Below the pieces are notes generated by a model. That model made no database searches, was not told the DNA's origin, and saw nothing but the letters and a program-made list of their open reading frames with translations. Positions 11,057 through 60,702 of a stretch of DNA of 64,000 bases are shown one piece after another; within the stretch, counting starts at the first letter, position 1, and every line of letters begins with the position of its first letter. This DNA comes from Planctomycetales bacterium (GTDB lineage Bacteria; 4484-113). The position numbers and the translations under genes are program-made. The DNA lies in the NCBI GenBank assembly GCA_037445915.1, contig JBBIJQ010000007.1, positions 72 through 64,071 of the forward strand, in the 5' to 3' direction.

Positions 11057-11084
11057 GGAGTCGGGACTTTCTAATCCCGACTCC
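11057..11084. terminator. 10-bp-stem hairpin (ggagtcggga-N8-tcccgactcc) in the convergent rsmA/topA intergenic region
   Basis: Perfect inverted repeat seen in sequence. The flanks are not U-rich, so function as an intrinsic terminator is uncertain. Confidence 0.35.
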
Positions 11085-11226
11085 GGAATCCTGAACGCGA
11101 CCAGAAAGTCGCGTCCCCGTCCAAGTATTACTACTTTATGAGTACGCCGGGCTCACCAGCCCGGCTAAGGAATCTCTGACACGCCAACAAAGTATCTACC
11201 GAGAGCAACCTGAACCTACGCCTTCC

Positions 11227-24135: not shown

Positions 24136-24224
24136 TTTCACGTAACCACTAAGGTTAGGTAGGCCAGGGTTTACCCGCCTTTGGAGGGTGACCAGCCCAG
24201 CTCTGGATTTTCACTGAATACTAA

Positions 24225-24253
24225 CTTCCGTAGGCCAGGCTTTAGCCTGGCTC
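24225..24253. repeat. REP hairpin, left inverted copy
   Basis: Stem gccaggc / loop ttta / gcctggc, embedded in conserved flanks ccgtagg...ctc. Confidence 0.8.
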
Positions 24254-24267
24254 CGGAAAATTTGTGT

Positions 24268-24753
24268 TCACCTCTTCCTGTCCTTGTTGTAATACCAAAG
24301 GAATTTGTAATCCTCCGGCTTTCTCACAATGCCCGGCGAGACCGGATTATTAGCGATGTATTTCATCTCCTCATAAAGCTCATATTCGTTGCGGATTAGC
24401 CGCGTGTGCGATCGGGTTTCCCAAAGCGGCCCTGACCTTCCCCTGCTTCTGTTTACGCGAAAGGAACTGAGGCCTTTCACATGCTGCATCGCCCTAGAAA
24501 GCGTGACCTCTTTCCCGGTCACAACAGGCTTAATAATGAGATGAACATGATTGGACATAACTACCAGCGCGAACAAGTCGTATAGTTCGCCTCTGCCGTC
24601 CATCACTACGTTGAAGACAATTTCTTTCTTGGCATCCGTGAAATGGCTTATCCCTTCGCGCAAGTTGAAAGTAGCGAAATAGGTGCCGCCTTTTTCCTCC
24701 CATCGCGGAATATGCTTGCGGGCGGGTTTTGTAACTGCTTTGGGTTTGTCCAT
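24268..24753 (-). CDS. REP-associated tyrosine transposase (RAYT; IS200/IS605 TnpA-like Y1 HUH)
   Basis: 161 aa. HUH motif (SNHVHLII) and the C-terminal catalytic Tyr region (YIANNPV), typical of RAYT/IS200 transposases. Confidence 0.85.
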   Translation of the reverse strand: MDKPKAVTKPARKHIPRWEEKGGTYFATFNLREGISHFTDAKKEIVFNVVMDGRGELYDLFALVVMSNHVHLIIKPVVTGKEVTLSRAMQHVKGLSSFRVNRSRGRSGPLWETRSHTRLIRNEYELYEEMKYIANNPVSPGIVRKPEDYKFLWYYNKDRKR

Positions 24754-24790
24754 GTATCTGATGATAACATGAGGTAAGTGCCGTATCCCA

Positions 24791-24819
24791 GAGCCAGGCT
24801 AAAGCCTGACCTACGGAAG
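24791..24819. repeat. REP hairpin, right inverted copy
   Basis: Reverse complement of the left copy with one substitution (gtc vs gcc). Confidence 0.8.
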
Positions 24820-24842
24820 TTAAATCGTTCTTATACGCCCGA

Positions 24843-24862
24843 GCCGCACTAGTGAGTGCGGC
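24843..24862. repeat. 8-bp-stem hairpin gccgcact-agtg-agtgcggc between the G4 motif and the REP
   Basis: Perfect inverted repeat seen in sequence; part of the composite repeat downstream of ftsK. Confidence 0.5.
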
Positions 24863-24876
24863 TTATCTTTCTGGAC

Positions 24877-24907
24877 TTACCCCTTACCCCTTGCCCCTTG
24901 CCCCTTC
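24877..24907 (-). repeat. (CCCCTTN)4 on the plus strand, i.e. (GGGG-N3)4 G-quadruplex-type motif on the ftsK sense strand, starting 1 nt after the ftsK stop codon
   Basis: ttaccccttaccccttgccccttgccccttcc. Minus strand reads TAG-gaaggggcaaggggcaaggggtaagggg. Confidence 0.7.
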
Positions 24908-27187
24908 CTAATAATCCTCGTCCAGGGGCTGCGGGGCGATGAGAAGCTCACGGTTGCCCTGGTGGTCGGCGGGGCTCACTACGCCCTGCTGCTCCATCTG
25001 CTCCATAATCCGCGCCGCGCGGTTGTAGCCGATTTTCAGCCTCCGCTGCAATAGCGAGGTGCTGGCGCGCCCGGCGCGGGTGATGATATCCATTGCGTCG
25101 CTGTATAGCTCGTCAAGCTCGTTACCGTCCCCGCCGCGGTTGCCGTTGCTGTCCCAGTCCTCGTCGCCGTTTTCGCCGCTAAACGCGGTGATGTCTTCAA
25201 TGTAGTCGGGCTTGGTCTGCTTGCGCAGGAACTCTGCCACGCGCTTAACCTCTTCATCACGCACCCACGCGCCCTGTACGCGAAGCGGCTTGGGAATGCC
25301 CACCGGGAAATAAAGCATATCGCCTGTGCCAAGCAGCTTCTCCGCGCCCGGCATGTCTATTATCGTGCGCGAGTCGATTTGGGAGACCACTGCGAACGCG
25401 ATGCGCGACGGGATGTTCATTTTGATGTTGCCGGTGATGATTTTAGCGTCGGGGCGCTGCGTTGCGACTATGAGGTGGATGCCAGTGGCGCGCGCGAGGT
25501 GCGCGATGCGGCCAATGAGGCGCTCAAAGAGGGGGCCCGCAGCCTTGATGAGGTCTGCCAACTCGTCGACGACGACCAGGATGTAAGGAAGCGGGCCGCT
25601 CTCCGGCGGCTTGTCGTTGTAGCCGTCAATGTTGCGAACGCCATGTTCCTCAAACGCGCGCAGCCTTGTCTCCATCTCCGAAACGACCCATTTCAGCGCG
25701 CTTAGCGCCTCGTTGATGTCGTTGACGATGGGCGCGGCGAGGTGCGGCGTATCCTTAAACACGCTCATCTCAACGCGCTTTGGGTCAATGAGGATAAGTC
25801 TTAGGCTCGCCGGCGAGTTGCGGTACATCAAGGAAACGAGAATGGCGTTGAGGCAGACGCTCTTGCCGCTGCCAGTGCTCCCTGCGACGAGAAGATGGTG
25901 CATGTCGTGGATGTTGCCGATGACGGGCTTGCCCGCGATGTCGCGCCCGATAGGGACCGCGAGCGGGTGCGCTTTGGACTTTAGCTCTGGTGATTCCAGC
26001 AGCGCGCGCAAGGATATCTTGTTGAACTTGCGGTTGGGGACTTCAATGCCGACCGCGCTTTTGCCGGGGATGGGCGTTTCCAGACGCACGGCGGGCACAG
26101 CAAGCTCAAGCGCGAGGTTGTCCGCGAGCGCATGCAGGCGGCTAACGTTTATCCCCGGCGCAATGCGCAGCTCAAAGCGGGTGACGCGCGGGCCGACCTC
26201 CCAGCTTGAAACCTCGCTTTCAATGTTGAACGCCTTGAGCGTCTCCACGATGACCTGCGCGTTGCGCTGCAAAACATCCTCGGCGACCGCTGAGAATGGG
26301 AAGTCGCTGAGAAGCCCAAGTGGCGGGAACTGGTAGTCTCCATACGCGGCGGCGAAGCGGAATGCCTGCTGTCCGACCTTCGGTGGCTCATCCGCGGCAA
26401 CCGCCTTTCCACCTGCGCCTTCGGCGAGCGTATCTTCCGCTCCGCCAGCCGACCCTAAAGGCGCGGGCTTATCCGCAGCTTCTCCCGGCGATGCAGCATC
26501 GCCGTCCACATATTCGTTCGCTGCTTCCGCTTCAAGCATTTCGCGCCTGCGCTTCAGCTCGGCTGCTGCGGCGCGCTGGCAAGCCTCGTTGCGCAAGTCG
26601 TCTATGAAATTCTCGCAAAAGCGCAGCGCAGGGAGCAAAAAGCCCCTGCCTGCGAAGGCGATGATTAGCCCGAGCAAGAGGAACGATAGAAGGACTGGGT
26701 AAAAGAACCCCAGCGCAGGCTCGGCGAAATGCCAGGCGAGCCTCCCGCCTTCCCCCCCGACGAAGTAGTATCCAGCTAGCAGGCAAAAGATGAGGTTTAG
26801 CACAGCGAGCTTCCAGGCATAGCCGATGAGCGCAGGCTGCGCGCGCAGGGGCAGCGCAGCGAAGCCCGCGAGGAGTATCAGCAATGGGACGGGGTAGGCC
26901 GCAAGGCCCGCATACCTTAATAAGAAGTCGTGAACCGCCCGCGAGGAGTTTCCTGCCAAGCCGGGCGTGGCCAGCGACATTGCGACGAAGATGAAAACGA
27001 GAAATATCAGGAGCGCAGCCAGGTCCTGCCAGACCTCGGCCTGCAATCCCAGGATAATCCTGCTTCGGCGGCGGCTCCTCTTTTTTCGGGGCATACAGGC
27101 TAGATTATAAGCTATTATGCTTTTTTCCCGTAAGGGCTGCAAACCTCCCAAACTTATGTTATAATCCATAACCTGCTGATGGTGCAC
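24908..27187 (-). CDS. ftsK: DNA translocase FtsK
   Basis: N-terminal TM segments, an Ala/Pro/Gly-rich linker, Walker A (GSTGSGKS), and a C-terminal gamma winged helix (RAARIMEQMEQQGVVS). Confidence 0.95.
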   Translation of the reverse strand: MHHQQVMDYNISLGGLQPLREKSIIAYNLACMPRKKRSRRRSRIILGLQAEVWQDLAALLIFLVFIFVAMSLATPGLAGNSSRAVHDFLLRYAGLAAYPVPLLILLAGFAALPLRAQPALIGYAWKLAVLNLIFCLLAGYYFVGGEGGRLAWHFAEPALGFFYPVLLSFLLLGLIIAFAGRGFLLPALRFCENFIDDLRNEACQRAAAAELKRRREMLEAEAANEYVDGDAASPGEAADKPAPLGSAGGAEDTLAEGAGGKAVAADEPPKVGQQAFRFAAAYGDYQFPPLGLLSDFPFSAVAEDVLQRNAQVIVETLKAFNIESEVSSWEVGPRVTRFELRIAPGINVSRLHALADNLALELAVPAVRLETPIPGKSAVGIEVPNRKFNKISLRALLESPELKSKAHPLAVPIGRDIAGKPVIGNIHDMHHLLVAGSTGSGKSVCLNAILVSLMYRNSPASLRLILIDPKRVEMSVFKDTPHLAAPIVNDINEALSALKWVVSEMETRLRAFEEHGVRNIDGYNDKPPESGPLPYILVVVDELADLIKAAGPLFERLIGRIAHLARATGIHLIVATQRPDAKIITGNIKMNIPSRIAFAVVSQIDSRTIIDMPGAEKLLGTGDMLYFPVGIPKPLRVQGAWVRDEEVKRVAEFLRKQTKPDYIEDITAFSGENGDEDWDSNGNRGGDGNELDELYSDAMDIITRAGRASTSLLQRRLKIGYNRAARIMEQMEQQGVVSPADHQGNRELLIAPQPLDEDY
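27157..27165 (+). promoter_or_regulatory. extended -10 promoter TGTTATAAT, with a possible -35 ctgcaa 17 bp upstream, reading toward the pseudopilin genes
   Basis: Perfect TGnTATAAT lying inside the first codons of ftsK (opposite strand). It predicts a ~230-nt leader before the ATG at 27400. Confidence 0.5.
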
Positions 27188-27399: not shown

Positions 27400-28428
27400 G
27401 TGTTGAGAACGAAAAAGGGATTCACCCTAATTGAGCTGCTGGTGGTCATCGTGATCATCGGCATCCTTGTGGCAATCGCCCTGCCAAACTTCATCAAAAT
27501 CAAGATCAAGGCGCGCGAAGCGGAGGTCAAGCAGAATCTTCATGCTATTCAGCTTGCCGTAGAACGCTACGCGACTGACAACGAGGGGCGCTACCCGTAT
27601 TTCCTCTACGGTGGCGACACCTATGTTAACGTCGGGACAAGTAAGCATGCTTGCGGCGACTGGATTGAACCGGGCGTTAACGGGAGGCACCCGTTTGACC
27701 TGTTCAACAAGACTTTCACCAATTACGACCATACTTACAGTGGCCGCGGCCTGTCCCGCAGCAACTTGGGCACGGCAGGCTTTGAGTTCGGCGACACGCT
27801 GGCGGTTGACGGCTACCTTACTCACTATCCAAACAACCCGTTCCTGACCAAGAAGGCGCAGAACATCTACGGCCTCGGCTCAAAGGACTGGGGCGGCTGG
27901 ATTCCCTGGAGGGCCTGCGGCGGCGTCAGCGGCCAGAATATGTTCAACCTCGGCTGGTCCGGCGAAGGTCCCAGCCTGATGGCTTACGACATTGACGGCG
28001 AGCCGAATACCTCAATCAAGCTTGAGTTCCCAGGCAACTTCTACTACCACCCGCGCTTCGTTGACGGGGCTAGCAACGCCGACCACTTCACTGCCCAGTG
28101 TACCTCACAGGCGATCACGCCAAACCATGTGACAGGCATAGGCGCAAGCGCCCGCCCCGGATTGGTTTGGAGCATGGATGTTGAGGGTTACGATCTCCTC
28201 GCTTACGGCGACCCTACAAGCGAAGGCTTTGACATTGACTACTCAATCAGCGGCGGCAGCCAGAAGATTAACTGTAAGCGCACAGGTTACCTGAACAACG
28301 TTCCGGAACCCAACCCTTACAACGCCGCCAACGGCTATGCCCCCCGGACAGTTCCGGACGGCAAGCCCGATTACTACATTATCCACCTGAGCAGCGCGCA
28401 GGACGCGAAGGCTCAGGGCGTCCTCTAA
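27400..28428 (+). CDS. prepilin-type N-terminal cleavage/methylation domain protein (large pseudopilin-like, 342 aa)
   Basis: MLRTKKG|FTLIELLVVIVIIGILVAIALPNF: class III signal with Gly-1, Phe+1, Glu+5. The C-terminal ~300 aa are unassigned. Confidence 0.8.
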   Translation: MLRTKKGFTLIELLVVIVIIGILVAIALPNFIKIKIKAREAEVKQNLHAIQLAVERYATDNEGRYPYFLYGGDTYVNVGTSKHACGDWIEPGVNGRHPFDLFNKTFTNYDHTYSGRGLSRSNLGTAGFEFGDTLAVDGYLTHYPNNPFLTKKAQNIYGLGSKDWGGWIPWRACGGVSGQNMFNLGWSGEGPSLMAYDIDGEPNTSIKLEFPGNFYYHPRFVDGASNADHFTAQCTSQAITPNHVTGIGASARPGLVWSMDVEGYDLLAYGDPTSEGFDIDYSISGGSQKINCKRTGYLNNVPEPNPYNAANGYAPRTVPDGKPDYYIIHLSSAQDAKAQGVL

Positions 28429-28439
28429 GTCTTTAGGAG

Positions 28440-29477
28440 GTGAAACCAATGATCTCTCGTAAGTCAGGCTTTACCCTAATTGAGTTGCTGGTGGTCATCG
28501 TAATCATCGGCATCCTCGTCGCCATCGCACTCCCGAACTTTATCAAAGTCCGCGAGAAGGCGAAGGAAGCAGAGGTAAAGCAAAATTTGCATTCGATCCA
28601 ACTGGCAGTTGAGCGCTATTCAACCGATAACGCGAACGGCAACTACCCCAACTATATCCTAGGTGGCGACTGGACCGACAGCTGGACTATCAATCAGCAG
28701 TACTTCTTCTTCGCTGGCCTTGACCAGGTTGCTTACCCGGCCTGGAAGACCGGCGGCCCGCAGTATTGCACGGACGGGAACGGAGACTACCTGATTATGG
28801 AAGGCTATATGCCGACCTACCCAAAGAACCCGTTCGTCAAGCAGGGCAACCTCGTCGCCCGCCGCCTTATCCACGATATGATGTGGCACAGCAACCGCGT
28901 TGGCACAACCATGCCCCGCCTCGTCGGCGGCGATGACAACACCAAGATGGTTGAAGTCTTCGGCCCGCCCCCCGCGTGGATTTTCGCCATGGTTGGGATG
29001 GGTGGCGACATGCGCGTCATCCCTCCGTACCCCGACCTTCAGAACGCGGACGGCCTCTGGCAGAACCGCGGCCTTAAAGACGTGACTGCCGCCGAGTACA
29101 GGCAGCCCGGCAGCCGCCTGCTGGTTGGCAACTTCTCCTACTTCGCCCGCTTGAACCAGCAGTGCTGGATACTGTGGAACGGTTCGCACGACGTCGCAGG
29201 CTATACCCTCGCCGCTTATGGCACGCTCAAGAACCTTGGCCAGGACGTTTACGACCGCAACGGTGAGTACTTCCCTCGTATGCGAATCGCAACCTGCGCC
29301 CTTGCCAACTACTTCGGCCTCAATGGCTTGTTGCCTTGCCAGACCGATTCGTCTCCCAACACGCTCAATCAGTCGCGCGGCGGCCCTGATACCCGTCCCG
29401 ACGGCGTGATCATCGTGTTAGACTCTGGCGTGGACAAGAAGTCCATGAATCCTACGGAAGGGGCGACTGGCTACTAA
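28440..29477 (+). CDS. prepilin-type N-terminal cleavage/methylation domain protein (large pseudopilin-like, 345 aa), paralog of the upstream gene
   Basis: MKPMISRKSG|FTLIELLVVIVIIGILVAIALPNFIKVREKAKEAEVKQNLHSIQLAVERY; near-identical N-terminal ~55 aa to the first copy, then divergent. GGAGG RBS. Confidence 0.8.
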   Translation: MKPMISRKSGFTLIELLVVIVIIGILVAIALPNFIKVREKAKEAEVKQNLHSIQLAVERYSTDNANGNYPNYILGGDWTDSWTINQQYFFFAGLDQVAYPAWKTGGPQYCTDGNGDYLIMEGYMPTYPKNPFVKQGNLVARRLIHDMMWHSNRVGTTMPRLVGGDDNTKMVEVFGPPPAWIFAMVGMGGDMRVIPPYPDLQNADGLWQNRGLKDVTAAEYRQPGSRLLVGNFSYFARLNQQCWILWNGSHDVAGYTLAAYGTLKNLGQDVYDRNGEYFPRMRIATCALANYFGLNGLLPCQTDSSPNTLNQSRGGPDTRPDGVIIVLDSGVDKKSMNPTEGATGY

Positions 29478-29595
29478 ACTACCAGCGCTTGCTTTTAGCC
29501 TTTCAGCGCAGGACTCCGCCCGCAAGGGCAGGGTCCTGTGCGCCTTTAAGGGGAGGAGTTAACTCGACATAATAGACGTGGCGCGCATCGGGCTT

Positions 29596-29645
29596 TATCT
29601 GCCTTTGGAGGGTGATTAGCCCAGTCCTGGAATCTGGTATCCTAA
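29596..29645. repeat. REP-like dispersed repeat copy (gcctttggagggtgattagcccagtcctggaatctgg)
   Basis: Shares gcctttggagggtga..agccca..ctggaat with 24176-24212 and partially with 59850-59872. Lies in a convergent intergenic region. Confidence 0.6.
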
Positions 29646-59818: not shown

Positions 59819-59837
59819 ATACTGGAAATAATCAAGG

Positions 59838-60010
59838 CCAGGCTGACCAGCCCGACTCTGGAAATCTCATATTTCCCGTAAGCCACACGTTTTTCCCGTA
59901 GGCCACACTTTAGTGTGGCTCTGGAATCTGAACTCTGTACTGAAGGGCGAGAGCTTGCCCGCCTTCAACGGGTTTACCCCCCGCCATCTGGTTCTGGAAT
60001 CTGGAAGCTC
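59838..60010. repeat. cluster of REP-like repeats (BIME-like), including a REP hairpin with compensatory stem changes
   Basis: aggccaggct-gaccagcccgactctggaa, then partial ttcccgtaagccacacg, then ttcccgtaggccacactttagtgtggctctgg (59894-59925), then gggtttaccccccgcc and ctggaatctggaagctctggatt. Confidence 0.7.
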
Positions 60011-60089
60011 TGGATTGTGGCACATGCGTCTCGCTTGTGCGTATAATGAACAGGCGAGTCGCTTGTTCCACCTTATTCGCTGGAACTAA

Positions 60090-60118
60090 CCCCTAATCCC
60101 TCACCCCTAACCCCTTTC
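60090..60118 (-). repeat. C-rich plus-strand tract, i.e. GGGGTTAGGGGTGAGGGATTAGGGG on the minus strand: telomere-like G-quadruplex motif directly after the stop codon of the cNMP-binding gene
   Basis: cccctaatccctcacccctaacccctttcc. Minus strand reads TAG-gaaaggggttaggggtgagggattagggg. Confidence 0.65.
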
Positions 60119-60589
60119 CTAATCCTCAAGCGCCAAACAAAGCGCCGTCGTGAGCTTCATCACGTCCTTGTTGGTCTTGAGCAATCTCTCCCCCGCGGTA
60201 AGCGCGATGCGCTTGAGTATGGCAAAGCCCATCTTCGGGTCGTCGTCGCAAAGCCGCTCAAAGGTTTTCTGTCCAATTATAAGCAGCCTGCAGCTCGCGC
60301 GCGCGATGACCGACGCGGTGCGCTCCTGTTGCCCGGGCAGCCCCATCTCGCCGAAGAACGGCTTTTCCTTACTCGACATAGTCATGAGCGTCTTGCTGAT
60401 TTCATTGTGCTCCAATTCCGCGAGCATCGTGAGCTTGCGCGAAACCCGCACTTCACCTTCAAGGAAAATGAACATTTCGTCGCCGGTGCGGCCCTCGCAG
60501 ATGATTAGCTCCTGCGCCTCGCATGTTACGAGGCGGCAAACCGCGGCTAATTCGCAAGCTGTCCCAGCGACAAGTCCCGCAAGTGGCAT
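60119..60589 (-). CDS. stand-alone cyclic nucleotide-binding (CAP effector-like) domain protein
   Basis: 156 aa with FGEMGL and RTASVIA phosphate-binding-cassette motifs and no HTH or other output domain. Confidence 0.75.
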   Translation of the reverse strand: MPLAGLVAGTACELAAVCRLVTCEAQELIICEGRTGDEMFIFLEGEVRVSRKLTMLAELEHNEISKTLMTMSSKEKPFFGEMGLPGQQERTASVIARASCRLLIIGQKTFERLCDDDPKMGFAILKRIALTAGERLLKTNKDVMKLTTALCLALED

Positions 60590-60702
60590 GGTTCAGTAAG
60601 AGCCTCCGGTTGTGATGTGGATGTTGTGCCAAGCTCTTGCATAGCCGATTAGCCTGCGGCTATTATAGCAAGGCGGCGCCGTCTGCCGCGCGGAGGTTAA
60701 AC

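What the first reader, a model, noticed from the sequence alone, without database searches (positions are those of the whole stretch)
24877..24920. G-quadruplex / telomere-like (GGGG-N3)4 motif beginning 1-3 nt after a stop codon, duplicated at a second locus and sharing sequence that includes the last codons
After the ftsK stop the mRNA-sense strand reads GAG-GAT-TAT-TAG-gaaGGGGcaaGGGGcaaGGGGtaaGGGG. After the cNMP-binding gene (60090-60127) it reads GAG-GAT-TAG-gaaaGGGGttaGGGGtgaGGGattaGGGG, a run of TTAGGG(G)-like units. Both loci share GAGGAT(TAT)TAGGAA(A)GGGG, so the repeat overlaps the terminal Glu-Asp codons and supplies the stop of two unrelated genes. Both are followed by the REP modules. 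Four G4 tracts with 3-nt loops are a canonical quadruplex former, here on the transcribed strand right at the 3' UTR start. I know of no described REP/BIME subtype with a G4 module.
Basis: seen in the sequence. Interest (0 to 1): 0.5.

Follow-up and report, generated by a model that had tools for sequence, protein, structure and literature searches.

The report
G-rich heptamer microsatellites after stop codons
Two short tandem repeats of a G-rich 7-base unit, able to fold into a G-quadruplex, sit just after the stop codons of two genes; they belong to a repeat class already described in Xanthomonas and Nostoc and are not a new REP module or an insertion that made the stops.

Summary
On the minus strand, GGGGCAAGGGGCAAGGGGTAAGGGG (24880-24904) starts 3 nt after the ftsK stop. 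GGGGTTAGGGGTGAGGGATTAGGGG (60090-60114) starts 4 nt after the stop of a cNMP-binding ORF. Both are period-7 tandem arrays of about 4.3 units and the only strong G4 candidates in the 64 kb.

The terminal Glu-Asp codons are ancestral: ftsK orthologs without any array end DEDF, DEEF, DEDL or EEDY. The cNMP-locus array lies at the same site in relatives with 4, 4 or 2 G-tracts, differing by a two-unit indel. That is in-place microsatellite slippage, not a mobile REP/BIME module. The ftsK array is absent at 82% FtsK identity, so G4 capacity is evolutionarily labile.

The closest known class is the G4-forming heptamer repeats of Rehm et al. 2015 (PMC4692102): about four units, flush with stop codons on the coding strand. 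A scan of species-representative genomes found (GGGGYNA)n arrays with at least four G-tracts in at least 120 stretches across many phyla, with the same bias.

Verdict: a new member of a known kind. An RNA or DNA G4 at the start of the 3' UTR is predicted, but any function is unproven.

The parts
24876..24906 (-). Heptamer array 1: (GGGGCAA)2(GGGGTAA)2 plus a partial unit. The G4 core, 24880-24904, has four GGGG tracts with 3-nt loops.
   Evidence: TRF period 7, 4.4 copies. Pattern search. G4Hunter 2.48. RNAfold with G4 gives -35.4 against -3.8 kcal/mol without, for the 46-nt core. Identical in L001.
24908..27187 (-). ftsK ORF, ending ...PLDEDY then TAG at 24908-24910. A GAA spacer (24905-24907) separates the stop from the first G-tract. 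The true start is probably the MPRKKR Met near 27094.
   Evidence: Translation. Orthologs carry FtsK_alpha, FtsK_SpoIIIE and FtsK_gamma domains and conserved DE[DE][YFL] C-termini.
24842..24863 (-). 9-bp hairpin (AGCCGCACT / AGTGCGGCT) 13 nt after array 1. The orthologous hairpin in the 82% relative has a different stem sequence.
   Evidence: Inverted-repeat search. Alignment A2. No U-tract follows on the minus strand, so it is not an intrinsic terminator for ftsK.
24786..24816 (-). REP-like hairpin CCGTAGG-TCAGGC-TTTA-GCCTGG-CTCTGGGA, a member of the window's intergenic hairpin family.
   Evidence: Direct-repeat family D19 and intergenic listing. Arms at 24795-24808.
60086..60115 (-). Heptamer array 2: GGGGTTA GGGGTGA GGGATTA GGGGTTA G. 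The G4 core is 60090-60114, with tracts of 4, 4, 3 and 4 G.
   Evidence: TRF period 7, 4.3 copies. G4Hunter 2.32. RNAfold with G4 gives -15.2 against -5.7 kcal/mol. The orthologous arrays have 4 tracts in L155 and L156 and 2 tracts in L158; L161 has none.
60119..60589 (-). cNMP-binding (PF00027) ORF ending ...LALED then TAG at 60119-60121. A GAAA spacer (60115-60118) precedes the array. The 5' end is frameshifted relative to orthologs.
   Evidence: Translation. Homologs and Pfam. Frame analysis.
60017..60074 (-). Double-hairpin quasi-palindromic element, about 57 nt, that follows array 2. It lies in the opposite orientation in the 84% relative.
   Evidence: Fold. Pairwise alignments score 82 inverted against 64 direct.
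59837..59926 (-). Distal part of the 3' intergenic region of locus 2. It holds the REP-like hairpin at 59896-59926 and a terminator-like hairpin with a T-rich tail at 59837-59856.

Best explanation
These are two copies of a G-rich heptanucleotide microsatellite, (GGGGYWA) repeated about four times. It is the same kind of repeat as the GGGAATC repeats of Xanthomonas and the GGGGA(C/T)T repeats (STRR-type) of Nostoc.

Shown:
- The arrays are tandem 7-nt repeats.
- They lie in the first nucleotides of the 3' UTR, with the G-rich strand as the sense strand.
- The stop codon and the acidic last codons belong to the genes themselves.
- At the cNMP locus the array has stayed at the same site in diverged relatives while changing by whole units (2 against 4 tracts). 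It therefore grows and shrinks in place by slipped-strand mispairing and was not inserted as a mobile module.
- The ftsK array exists only in this species.

Inferred:
- With four G-tracts, the sense strand can fold into an intramolecular G-quadruplex, either in the mRNA or in the displaced non-template DNA during transcription.
- The G4 starts 3-4 nt after the stop. By own knowledge of the ribosome footprint, that places it inside the footprint of a terminating ribosome. Each terminating ribosome would have to melt it, and it would refold behind.
- Together with the REP-like hairpins that follow, it most plausibly acts as a structural block at the start of the 3' UTR. Such a block would slow 3'-to-5' exonucleolytic decay into the ORF and might mildly tune termination.
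- Because close relatives lack G4 capacity at the same sites, the effect is probably weak or nearly neutral rather than an essential signal.
For: - Period-7 arrays with four G-tracts.
- Ancestral C-termini in ftsK orthologs without arrays.
- LALED shared by every listed cNMP ortholog at 75% identity or more.
- The orthologous locus-2 arrays have 4, 4 and 2 tracts and differ by an indel of two units (15 alignment columns, one being the extra spacer A). The 67% relative has none.
- The G4 is part of the predicted minimum-energy RNA fold at both loci.
- No intrinsic terminator lies at the arrays.
- The class is documented. Rehm et al. 2015 (PMC4692102) report G-rich heptamer repeats with a preference for four units, G4 formation shown by CD, positions 0-50 bp from the stop on the coding strand including overlap with the stop, and length variation between related genomes.
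- Cross-phylum check: (GGGGYNA)n arrays with at least four G-tracts occur in at least 120 stretches of species-representative genomes.
- Of 89 arrays with usable flanks, 29 start within -9 to +15 nt of the stop of an ORF of 150 or more codons on the G strand, against 8 on the C strand. With the stricter window of -1 to +15 nt the counts are 20 against 8, p about 0.02-0.04.
- 7 of 8 such ORFs tested are real genes with Pfam domains; two of these (PpnN_C, Ldh_1_C) reach within 1-4 residues of the C-terminus.
Against: - The genome-wide copy number in this organism is unknown. Only 2 copies in 64 kb were seen, and none in the roughly 100 kb of relatives' loci fetched.
- The unit sequence differs from the published ones.
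- G4 folding is only predicted. RNA G4s are reported to be generally depleted in bacteria (Guo and Bartel 2016, as cited in PMC10801317).
- The class-wide polarity is unexplained by a purely 3'-UTR RNA role. Arrays sit close to the ORF on the 5' side of the G strand whatever that ORF's orientation (Rehm section 13).
- The bias toward four units and toward stop codons hints at some selection or mechanism that simple neutral slippage does not explain.
Confidence: 0.6

Rival explanations
1. Selected cis-regulatory RNA G4. The stop-flush, sense-strand G4 is maintained by selection as a 3'-end signal, for example as an exonuclease cap, a modulator of termination or ribosome recycling, or a trigger of stalling and trans-translation. 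REP hairpins within about 15 nt of E. coli stop codons are reported to act in the last way (Liang, Rudd and Deutscher 2015; own knowledge, not retrieved here).
For: - Both window arrays have exactly four tracts.
- Compared with the window array, the L156 array (84% protein identity) carries three substitutions. All fall in loops or at a tract edge and leave four tracts of at least 3 G.
- The class-wide bias is to the sense strand right after stops.
- Rehm et al. found a four-unit preference and more transcript ends at G4-capable repeats.
Against: - The ftsK array is absent at 82% identity, and the cNMP array has only two tracts at 75%.
- The chance that three substitutions all miss the 12 core G positions is about 0.19, which is not significant (own arithmetic).
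- The cNMP gene next to array 2 looks frameshifted in this species.
- The same proximity rule holds for ORF starts on the opposite strand.
Confidence: 0.22
2. DNA-level polar element. The array acts or arises on DNA. Possibilities are a G4 on the non-template or lagging-strand template, an i-motif on the C strand, an R-loop or RNA-polymerase pause, or a C-rich Rho-loading site on antisense transcripts. Its polarity would explain why the 5' end of the G strand abuts ORFs of either orientation.
For: - Medians in the polarity analysis are 16 and 50 nt on the 5' side of the G strand, against 106-123 nt on the 3' side, irrespective of ORF orientation.
- Rehm section 13 reports the same rule.
- Both window arrays have their G strand on the strand that is G-richer overall. 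GC skew on the plus strand is negative in 7 of 8 8-kb blocks.
Against: - No direct evidence for any DNA-level effect.
- Only two arrays are available here.
- Stop-facing arrays are still the closest class: 17 of 35 lie within 15 nt.
Confidence: 0.1
3. The array is a G4 module of a REP/BIME-like mobile repeat that inserted at gene ends, overlapping the last Glu-Asp codons and supplying the stop.
For: - Both arrays are followed by REP-like hairpins, and both are preceded by TAGGAA(A).
- At the cNMP gene the last residue is D in the three lineages shown to carry an array (window/L155, L156, L158) and P in the one array-less lineage whose DNA was read (L161). The other ...LALEP orthologs were not checked.
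- The gene end GAAGATTAG followed by GAAGGGATTAG looks like a tandem duplication.
Against: - ftsK orthologs without arrays keep the same length and the DE[DE][YFL] ending.
- The array varies by whole units at a fixed site.
- The array itself is not palindromic.
- The 3' flank GT(T)CCAG is not conserved in L156.
- The metagenome scan for array plus flank found no family members from this lineage.
- Three of the five REP-bearing intergenic regions in the window have no array.
Confidence: 0.05
4. Chance co-occurrence of two G-rich runs.
For: Only two copies were seen, and the shared GAGGAT is explained by acidic C-termini.
Against: Shuffle controls; conservation in independent assemblies and relatives; membership of a widespread class.
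Confidence: 0.02

Closest known systems
G-rich heptameric quadruplex-forming SSRs: GGGAATC in Xanthomonas and GGGGA(C/T)T in Nostoc PCC 7120 (Rehm et al. 2015, PMC4692102)
   Same: 7-nt unit with a G3-4 tract. About four units, the minimum for a G4. Intergenic. 0-50 bp from the stop, or overlapping it, on the coding strand. Nearer to the ORF on the 5' side than to the one on the 3' side. Unit number varies between related genomes. Not tied to a gene function class.
   Different: The unit here is GGGGYWA (CAA, TAA, TTA and TGA loops). The host is an uncultured lineage whose nearest named relative at 60% FtsK identity is 'Planctomycetales bacterium 4484_113'. Genome-wide abundance was not established. 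No biophysical proof of G4 formation.
Cyanobacterial short tandemly repeated repetitive (STRR) heptamers, for example CCCCA(A/G)T of Calothrix and Anabaena (Mazel et al. 1990; own knowledge, cited as ref. 39 in PMC4692102)
   Same: Tandem heptanucleotides with a run of four C or G, in non-coding DNA.
   Different: Different unit and different phylum. STRR arrays are often much longer.
REP/BIME elements of enterobacteria and their 3'-UTR roles: an exonuclease barrier, and stalling with trans-translation when within about 15 nt of a stop (own knowledge; REP as an RNase R/PNPase substrate in PMC12320835)
   Same: Structured repeats at the start of the 3' UTR. This is the likely functional analogy. 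True REP-like hairpins follow both arrays here.
   Different: REPs are imperfect palindromes that form hairpins and are dispersed as copies of one sequence. The arrays here are direct tandem repeats that would fold as a G4 and evolve by unit slippage.
Eukaryotic telomeric repeats (TTAGGG, TTGGGG)
   Same: G-rich short tandem units that can form a G4. Locus 2 contains the letters TTAGGG(G).
   Different: The arrays are internal, have four units only, and lie between syntenic genes in several assemblies. There is no replicon end.

Membership tests
G-rich heptameric G4-forming SSRs (Rehm et al. 2015 class) | Head-to-tail tandem repeat of a 7-nt unit containing a G3-4 tract | tested here: met
   TRF period 7 with 4.4 and 4.3 copies
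G-rich heptameric G4-forming SSRs (Rehm et al. 2015 class) | At least four G-tracts, allowing an intramolecular G4, with a typical array of four units | tested here: met
   Tracts of 4, 4, 4, 4 and of 4, 4, 3, 4 G
G-rich heptameric G4-forming SSRs (Rehm et al. 2015 class) | Intergenic, 0-50 bp after a stop codon with the G-rich strand as the coding strand, and closer to the ORF on the 5' side than to the one on the 3' side | tested here: met
   3 and 4 nt after the stops. The next ORF on the 3' side is 126 and 271 nt away.
G-rich heptameric G4-forming SSRs (Rehm et al. 2015 class) | Unit number varies between related genomes at the same locus | tested here: met
   Locus 2 has 4, 4 and 2 tracts in relatives and none in the 67% relative. 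Locus 1 is present at 99% and absent at 82% identity.
G-rich heptameric G4-forming SSRs (Rehm et al. 2015 class) | Many copies spread over the genome (89-183 in the published genomes) | not testable with these tools
   Only 64 kb of this genome is held, with 2 copies. The metagenome scan returned no contig from this lineage.
G-rich heptameric G4-forming SSRs (Rehm et al. 2015 class) | G4 formation shown biophysically (CD, K+ dependence) | not testable with these tools
   Prediction only: G4Hunter 2.3-2.5 and RNAfold with G4 energies
G-rich heptameric G4-forming SSRs (Rehm et al. 2015 class) | Published unit sequence GGGAATC or GGGGA(C/T)T | tested here: not met
   The units are GGGGCAA, GGGGTAA, GGGGTTA, GGGGTGA and GGGATTA. 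This is a sequence variant of the class, not the same repeat.
REP/BIME | An imperfect palindrome that folds as a stem-loop | tested here: not met
   Without G4 energies the array cores fold at only -3.8 and -5.7 kcal/mol. The arrays are direct repeats, not inverted ones.
REP/BIME | Dispersed copies of one conserved element with defined ends | tested here: not met
   The 3' flank is not conserved in L156. The scan for array plus flank found nothing from this lineage. Three REP-bearing spacers in the window lack arrays.
Telomere repeats | Located at the ends of a linear replicon | tested here: not met
   The arrays are internal, with syntenic genes on both sides in the window, L001, L155 and L156.
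Phase-variable contingency SSR | A change in unit number shifts a reading frame or promoter spacing | tested here: not met
   The arrays lie after the stop codon. Protein C-termini are unchanged among relatives with 0, 2 or 4 units.
Intrinsic (Rho-independent) terminator | A GC-rich hairpin followed by a U-tract on the transcribed strand | tested here: not met
   None at or directly after the arrays on the minus strand. The nearest candidate at locus 2 is about 230 nt further on, at 59837-59856.

The most novel reading that the evidence does not exclude
Stop-codon-flush, sense-strand G4 heptamer arrays could be a selected signal that spans bacterial phyla, marking gene 3' ends. The signal could be an RNA G4 cap against 3' exonucleases, a modulator of termination and ribosome recycling, or a polar DNA G4/i-motif element. 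The unexplained '5' end of the G strand abuts an ORF' rule would then reflect a real mechanism rather than slippage confined by coding constraint.
Probability: 0.15. Interest if true: 0.65.

Novelty: new member of a known kind. Interest (0 to 1): 0.27.

Why it matters
The finding adds an uncultured, candidate-phylum-level lineage and a new unit variant (GGGGYWA) to the G4-forming heptamer repeats. The orthologous-locus comparison shows directly that such an array evolves in place by whole-unit slippage, and that the adjacent stop and C-terminus are the gene's own.

The side survey suggests the stop-adjacent, G-strand-polar placement reported for three genomes holds across many bacterial phyla. 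That keeps open the unresolved question of what these repeats do. For this window itself, nothing new in kind is present.

Tried and rejected
- **Exact-protein look-ups failed.** The window's cNMP ORF and P0121 are not on record, so the source contig could not be named.
- **No DNA for P0002.** The 90% FtsK relative had no DNA available.
- **Metagenome scan.** The pattern GGGGN3GGGN4GGGGTWAGT(N)CCAG, array plus the 3' flank shared by the two loci, gave 26 hits. None came from this lineage, so the shared GT(T)CCAG flank is not evidence of a family. It is also lost in L156.
- **Rfam.** Only a tRNA-His was found in the window.
- **Terminator idea.** Rejected, because no hairpin plus U-tract lies at the arrays.
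- **Stems around the G4.** The 6-bp CUGGAC/GUCCAG stem at locus 1 and the GGAA/UUCC stem at locus 2 are not conserved in relatives. I treat them as chance.
- **'Three-frame stop' idea.** Heptamers containing TAA, TAG or TGA close all three frames. This is not general, because the commonest loops in the survey (TCA, CGA) carry no stop on the G strand. It also does not explain the strand asymmetry.
- **Telomere and phase-variation readings.** Rejected on position.
- **Literature not retrieved.** Guo and Bartel 2016 is not held in the library, and Liang, Rudd and Deutscher 2015 was not found by full-text search. I cite them only as second-hand or own knowledge.
Full report
**1. What is there**

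On the minus strand, the 3' end of the ftsK ORF (24908-27187) reads ...CTG GAC GAG GAT TAT TAG gaa GGGGCAAGGGGCAAGGGGTAAGGGG taagtccagaaag. The end of a 156-codon cNMP-binding ORF (60119-60589) reads ...CTT GAG GAT TAG gaaa GGGGTTAGGGGTGAGGGATTAGGGG ttagttccagcg.

Tandem Repeats Finder reports both as period-7 arrays: 24876-24906 with 4.4 copies and 60086-60115 with 4.3 copies. Shuffle controls show they are not chance. One pattern gives 4 hits against 0.32 expected, and another gives 5 hits against 0.20 expected with 0 of 100 shuffles reaching that.

These are the only two places in the 64 kb (58.5% G+C) with |G4Hunter| above 2. There are no shorter arrays elsewhere in the window. The same sequences occur in independent assemblies of the same or a very close species: L001 from GCA_037443325.1 and L155 from GCA_964541875.1. 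Strictly, (GGGG-N3)4 applies only to locus 1, because the third tract at locus 2 is GGG.

**2. Are the last codons and the stop supplied by the repeat?**

For ftsK the answer is no. FtsK homologs at 68-99% identity all end in an acidic tail plus an aromatic or aliphatic residue: DEDY, DDEDY, DEDF, DEEY, DEEF, EEDY or DEDL. I read the DNA after the stop in five lineages:
- The 99% relative has the identical array.
- The 82% relative (L123, L124) has GAG GAT TTT TAA followed by ggaaaggtaataagcaggtagtagtaaggatt. This is A/G-rich and has the same 32-nt length up to TC(C)AGA, but it has no G-tracts.
- The 68-70% relatives (L002, L125, L127) have unrelated sequence.

So the Glu-Asp codons and the position of the stop are ancestral, and the array is specific to this species.

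For the cNMP gene, the tail ...KLTTALCLALED is shared by every listed homolog at 75% identity or more. More distant homologs end ...LALEP...LALEE or ...LALER. Only the last residue co-varies with array presence. The gene end GAAGATTAG followed by GAAGGGATTAG in L158 looks like a tandem duplication. A seeding of the array from the gene's own end therefore remains possible there, but the gene was neither shortened nor extended. The shared GAGGAT is explained by two acidic C-termini, and it needs a 3-nt gap to align.

**3. How the array evolves**

At the cNMP locus the array occupies the same site in diverged relatives (alignment A1):

| Source | Protein identity | Sequence after the stop |
|---|---|---|
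| window, L155 | 95-100% | TAG GAAA GGGGTTA GGGGTGA GGGATTA GGGGTTA GTTCCAG |
| L156, L157 | 84% | TAG GAA GGGGTTA GGGGAGA GGGATAA GGGATTA GTTAAG |
| L158-L160 | 75% | TAG GAA GGGATTA GGGGTTA GTTCCAA |
| L161, L162 | 67% | no array |

The difference between four and two tracts is an indel of two units (15 alignment columns in A1, one of them the extra spacer A). This is the signature of slipped-strand mispairing in a microsatellite. It is not what insertion or excision of a mobile module would leave.

It also shows that G4 capacity is not conserved. The 75% lineage has two tracts at this locus, and the 82% FtsK relative, from the same JGI sample (3300061209), has none at the ftsK locus. Compared with the window, the L156 array carries three substitutions that all spare the core of the tracts. 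The chance of that is about 0.19, so it is not evidence of selection.

**4. Relation to the REP-like hairpins**

The window does carry a family of intergenic hairpins, for example CCGTAGG-stem-TTTAG-stem-CTCYGGAA, with stems that differ between copies while staying complementary. They occur in five spacers. Two of those spacers have an array at the end nearest the gene, and three do not.

The arrays are direct repeats, not palindromes. Without G4 energies they fold at only -3.8 and -5.7 kcal/mol. The short 3' flank shared by the two loci, GT(T)CCAG, is lost in L156. A metagenome scan for array plus flank found 26 stretches, none from this lineage. I therefore do not regard the array as a REP/BIME module. 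Arrays and hairpins are separate occupants of the same 3' UTRs.

**5. Predicted structure and surroundings**

With G-quadruplex energies switched on, the G4 is part of the minimum-energy RNA fold of both 3' UTRs. For the 46-nt cores the energies are -35.4 against -3.8 kcal/mol and -15.2 against -5.7 kcal/mol.

No hairpin plus U-tract follows either array on the transcribed strand. At locus 1 the next ORF (24268-24753, same strand) starts 126 nt after the array. At locus 2 the spacer to the convergent gene is 300 nt, with a terminator-like hairpin at its far end, 59837-59856. Rfam gives nothing but a tRNA.

**6. Comparison with what is known**

Rehm et al. 2015 (PMC4692102) described G-rich heptameric repeats: GGGAATC in Xanthomonas and GGGGA(C/T)T in Nostoc PCC 7120. 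Their main findings:
- G4 formation was shown by CD.
- The repeats are mostly intergenic.
- Downstream repeats are mostly 0-50 bp from the stop on the coding strand, including overlap with the stop.
- Length varies between Xcc and Xac.
- Transcripts start or stop more often at G4-capable repeats.
- No function was established.

The window arrays meet every feature of this class that I could test. The exception is the exact unit sequence, and genome-wide abundance could not be tested.

**7. Cross-phylum check**

A scan of one genome per species for CCCCTNR x3 + CCCC stopped at its 120-stretch limit. Hits came from Planctomycetota, Chloroflexota, Cyanobacteria, Gammaproteobacteria, Acidobacteriota, Actinomycetota, Verrucomicrobiota and others.

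| Measure, among 89 arrays with usable flanks | G strand | C strand |
|---|---|---|
| Start within -9 to +15 nt of the stop of an ORF of 150 or more codons | 29 | 8 |
| Stop required to precede or abut the array (-1 to +15 nt; p about 0.02-0.04) | 20 | 8 |

Seven of eight such ORFs tested have Pfam domains, so these are real genes. The two clearest, PpnN_C and Ldh_1_C, reach within 1-4 residues of the C-terminus.

With crude gene calls, the distance from the 5' end of the G strand to the nearest ORF has a median of 16 nt when the ORF's stop faces the array and 50 nt when its start faces the array. From the 3' end of the G strand the medians are 106-123 nt. So the window's 'G4 right after the stop' is one instance of a general, already reported, and still unexplained placement rule.

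**8. Mechanism**

Shown: tandem heptamers, in-place unit slippage, ancestral gene ends, and a sense-strand position inside the first 30 nt of the 3' UTR.

Inferred: the four tracts fold into a G4 in the mRNA, or in non-template DNA during transcription. The G4 begins 3-4 nt after the stop, which by own knowledge of the ribosome footprint lies within the reach of a terminating ribosome. It would be melted at each termination event and refold afterwards. The most plausible effect, by analogy with REP hairpins (own knowledge; RNase R/PNPase targets in PMC12320835), is a barrier to 3' exonucleases and perhaps a mild brake on termination.

Four points argue against a strong function:
- The arrays are lost or halved in close relatives.
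- The cNMP gene beside array 2 appears frameshifted in this species.
- RNA G4s are reported as generally depleted in bacteria (cited in PMC10801317).
- The polarity rule also holds for ORF starts on the other strand.

I put about 0.85 on the identity (a G-rich heptamer SSR of the Rehm class evolving by slippage) and about 0.3 on the specific RNA-barrier effect.

**9. Verdict**

The feature is real and non-random, but it is a new member of a known kind. The 'new REP module that makes the stop' reading is not supported. Interest is modest. The open point worth following is the class-wide polarity and the bias toward four units, not these two copies in themselves.

Noticed in passing
window 60500-60700 (minus strand): The cNMP-binding gene seems frameshifted near its 5' end. 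The ortholog N-terminus (MQELGTTST.QPE...LRDL..GQLA) is encoded in another frame upstream of the called ATG, which gives 156 aa against 173-174 aa in relatives. The same short form is found in two other assemblies (P0122, P0123). It may be a pseudogene or use an internal start.
   Followed up: partly
window 60017-60074 against L156 4151-4215: The double-hairpin quasi-palindromic element of about 57 nt after array 2 aligns better to the reverse complement of its counterpart in the 84% relative (score 82 against 64). It appears to be inverted between the lineages.
   Followed up: partly
window 24228-24258 (+), 24786-24816 (-), 59896-59926 (+), 11060-11090, 24160-24207, 29591-29631: There is a family of intergenic REP-like hairpins ending in CTCYGGAA. 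Copies differ in stem sequence but stay complementary, for example CCAGGC/GCCTGG against CCACAC/GTGTGG.
   Followed up: partly
L002 12188-12275: In the 70% relative the ftsK stop is followed by a different palindromic repeat type, GTAGGGGCAAGGCATGCCTTGCCCT and GAGGGCACGGCGTGCCGTGCCCCTAC, instead of a heptamer array.
   Followed up: no
L003-L122 (species-representative genomes): (GGGGYNA)n arrays with at least four G-tracts are widespread across phyla and show a polarity. They sit close to the ORF on the 5' side of the G strand whatever its orientation (medians 16 and 50 nt) and far from the ORF on the 3' side (medians 106-123 nt). Several gammaproteobacterial MAG copies share the flanks GGAA-[array]-TTAGTCGGAAC.
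   Followed up: partly
L135, L143, L130 (metagenome contigs): Some heptamer arrays occur as closely spaced inverted pairs, a G-array followed by the complementary C-array. These could form long hairpins as well as G4s, as Rehm et al. noted for Xanthomonas.
   Followed up: no
window 27418-27583 and 28467-28632: Two adjacent 342- and 345-aa ORFs (27400-28428 and 28440-29477) are paralogs sharing a 166-nt stretch at 77% identity. Their counterparts in L001 carry the prepilin-type N_methyl domain.
   Followed up: no
window 1-64000: GC skew on the plus strand is negative in 7 of 8 8-kb blocks, so the minus strand is the G-richer strand. It carries the G-rich strand of both arrays.
   Followed up: no
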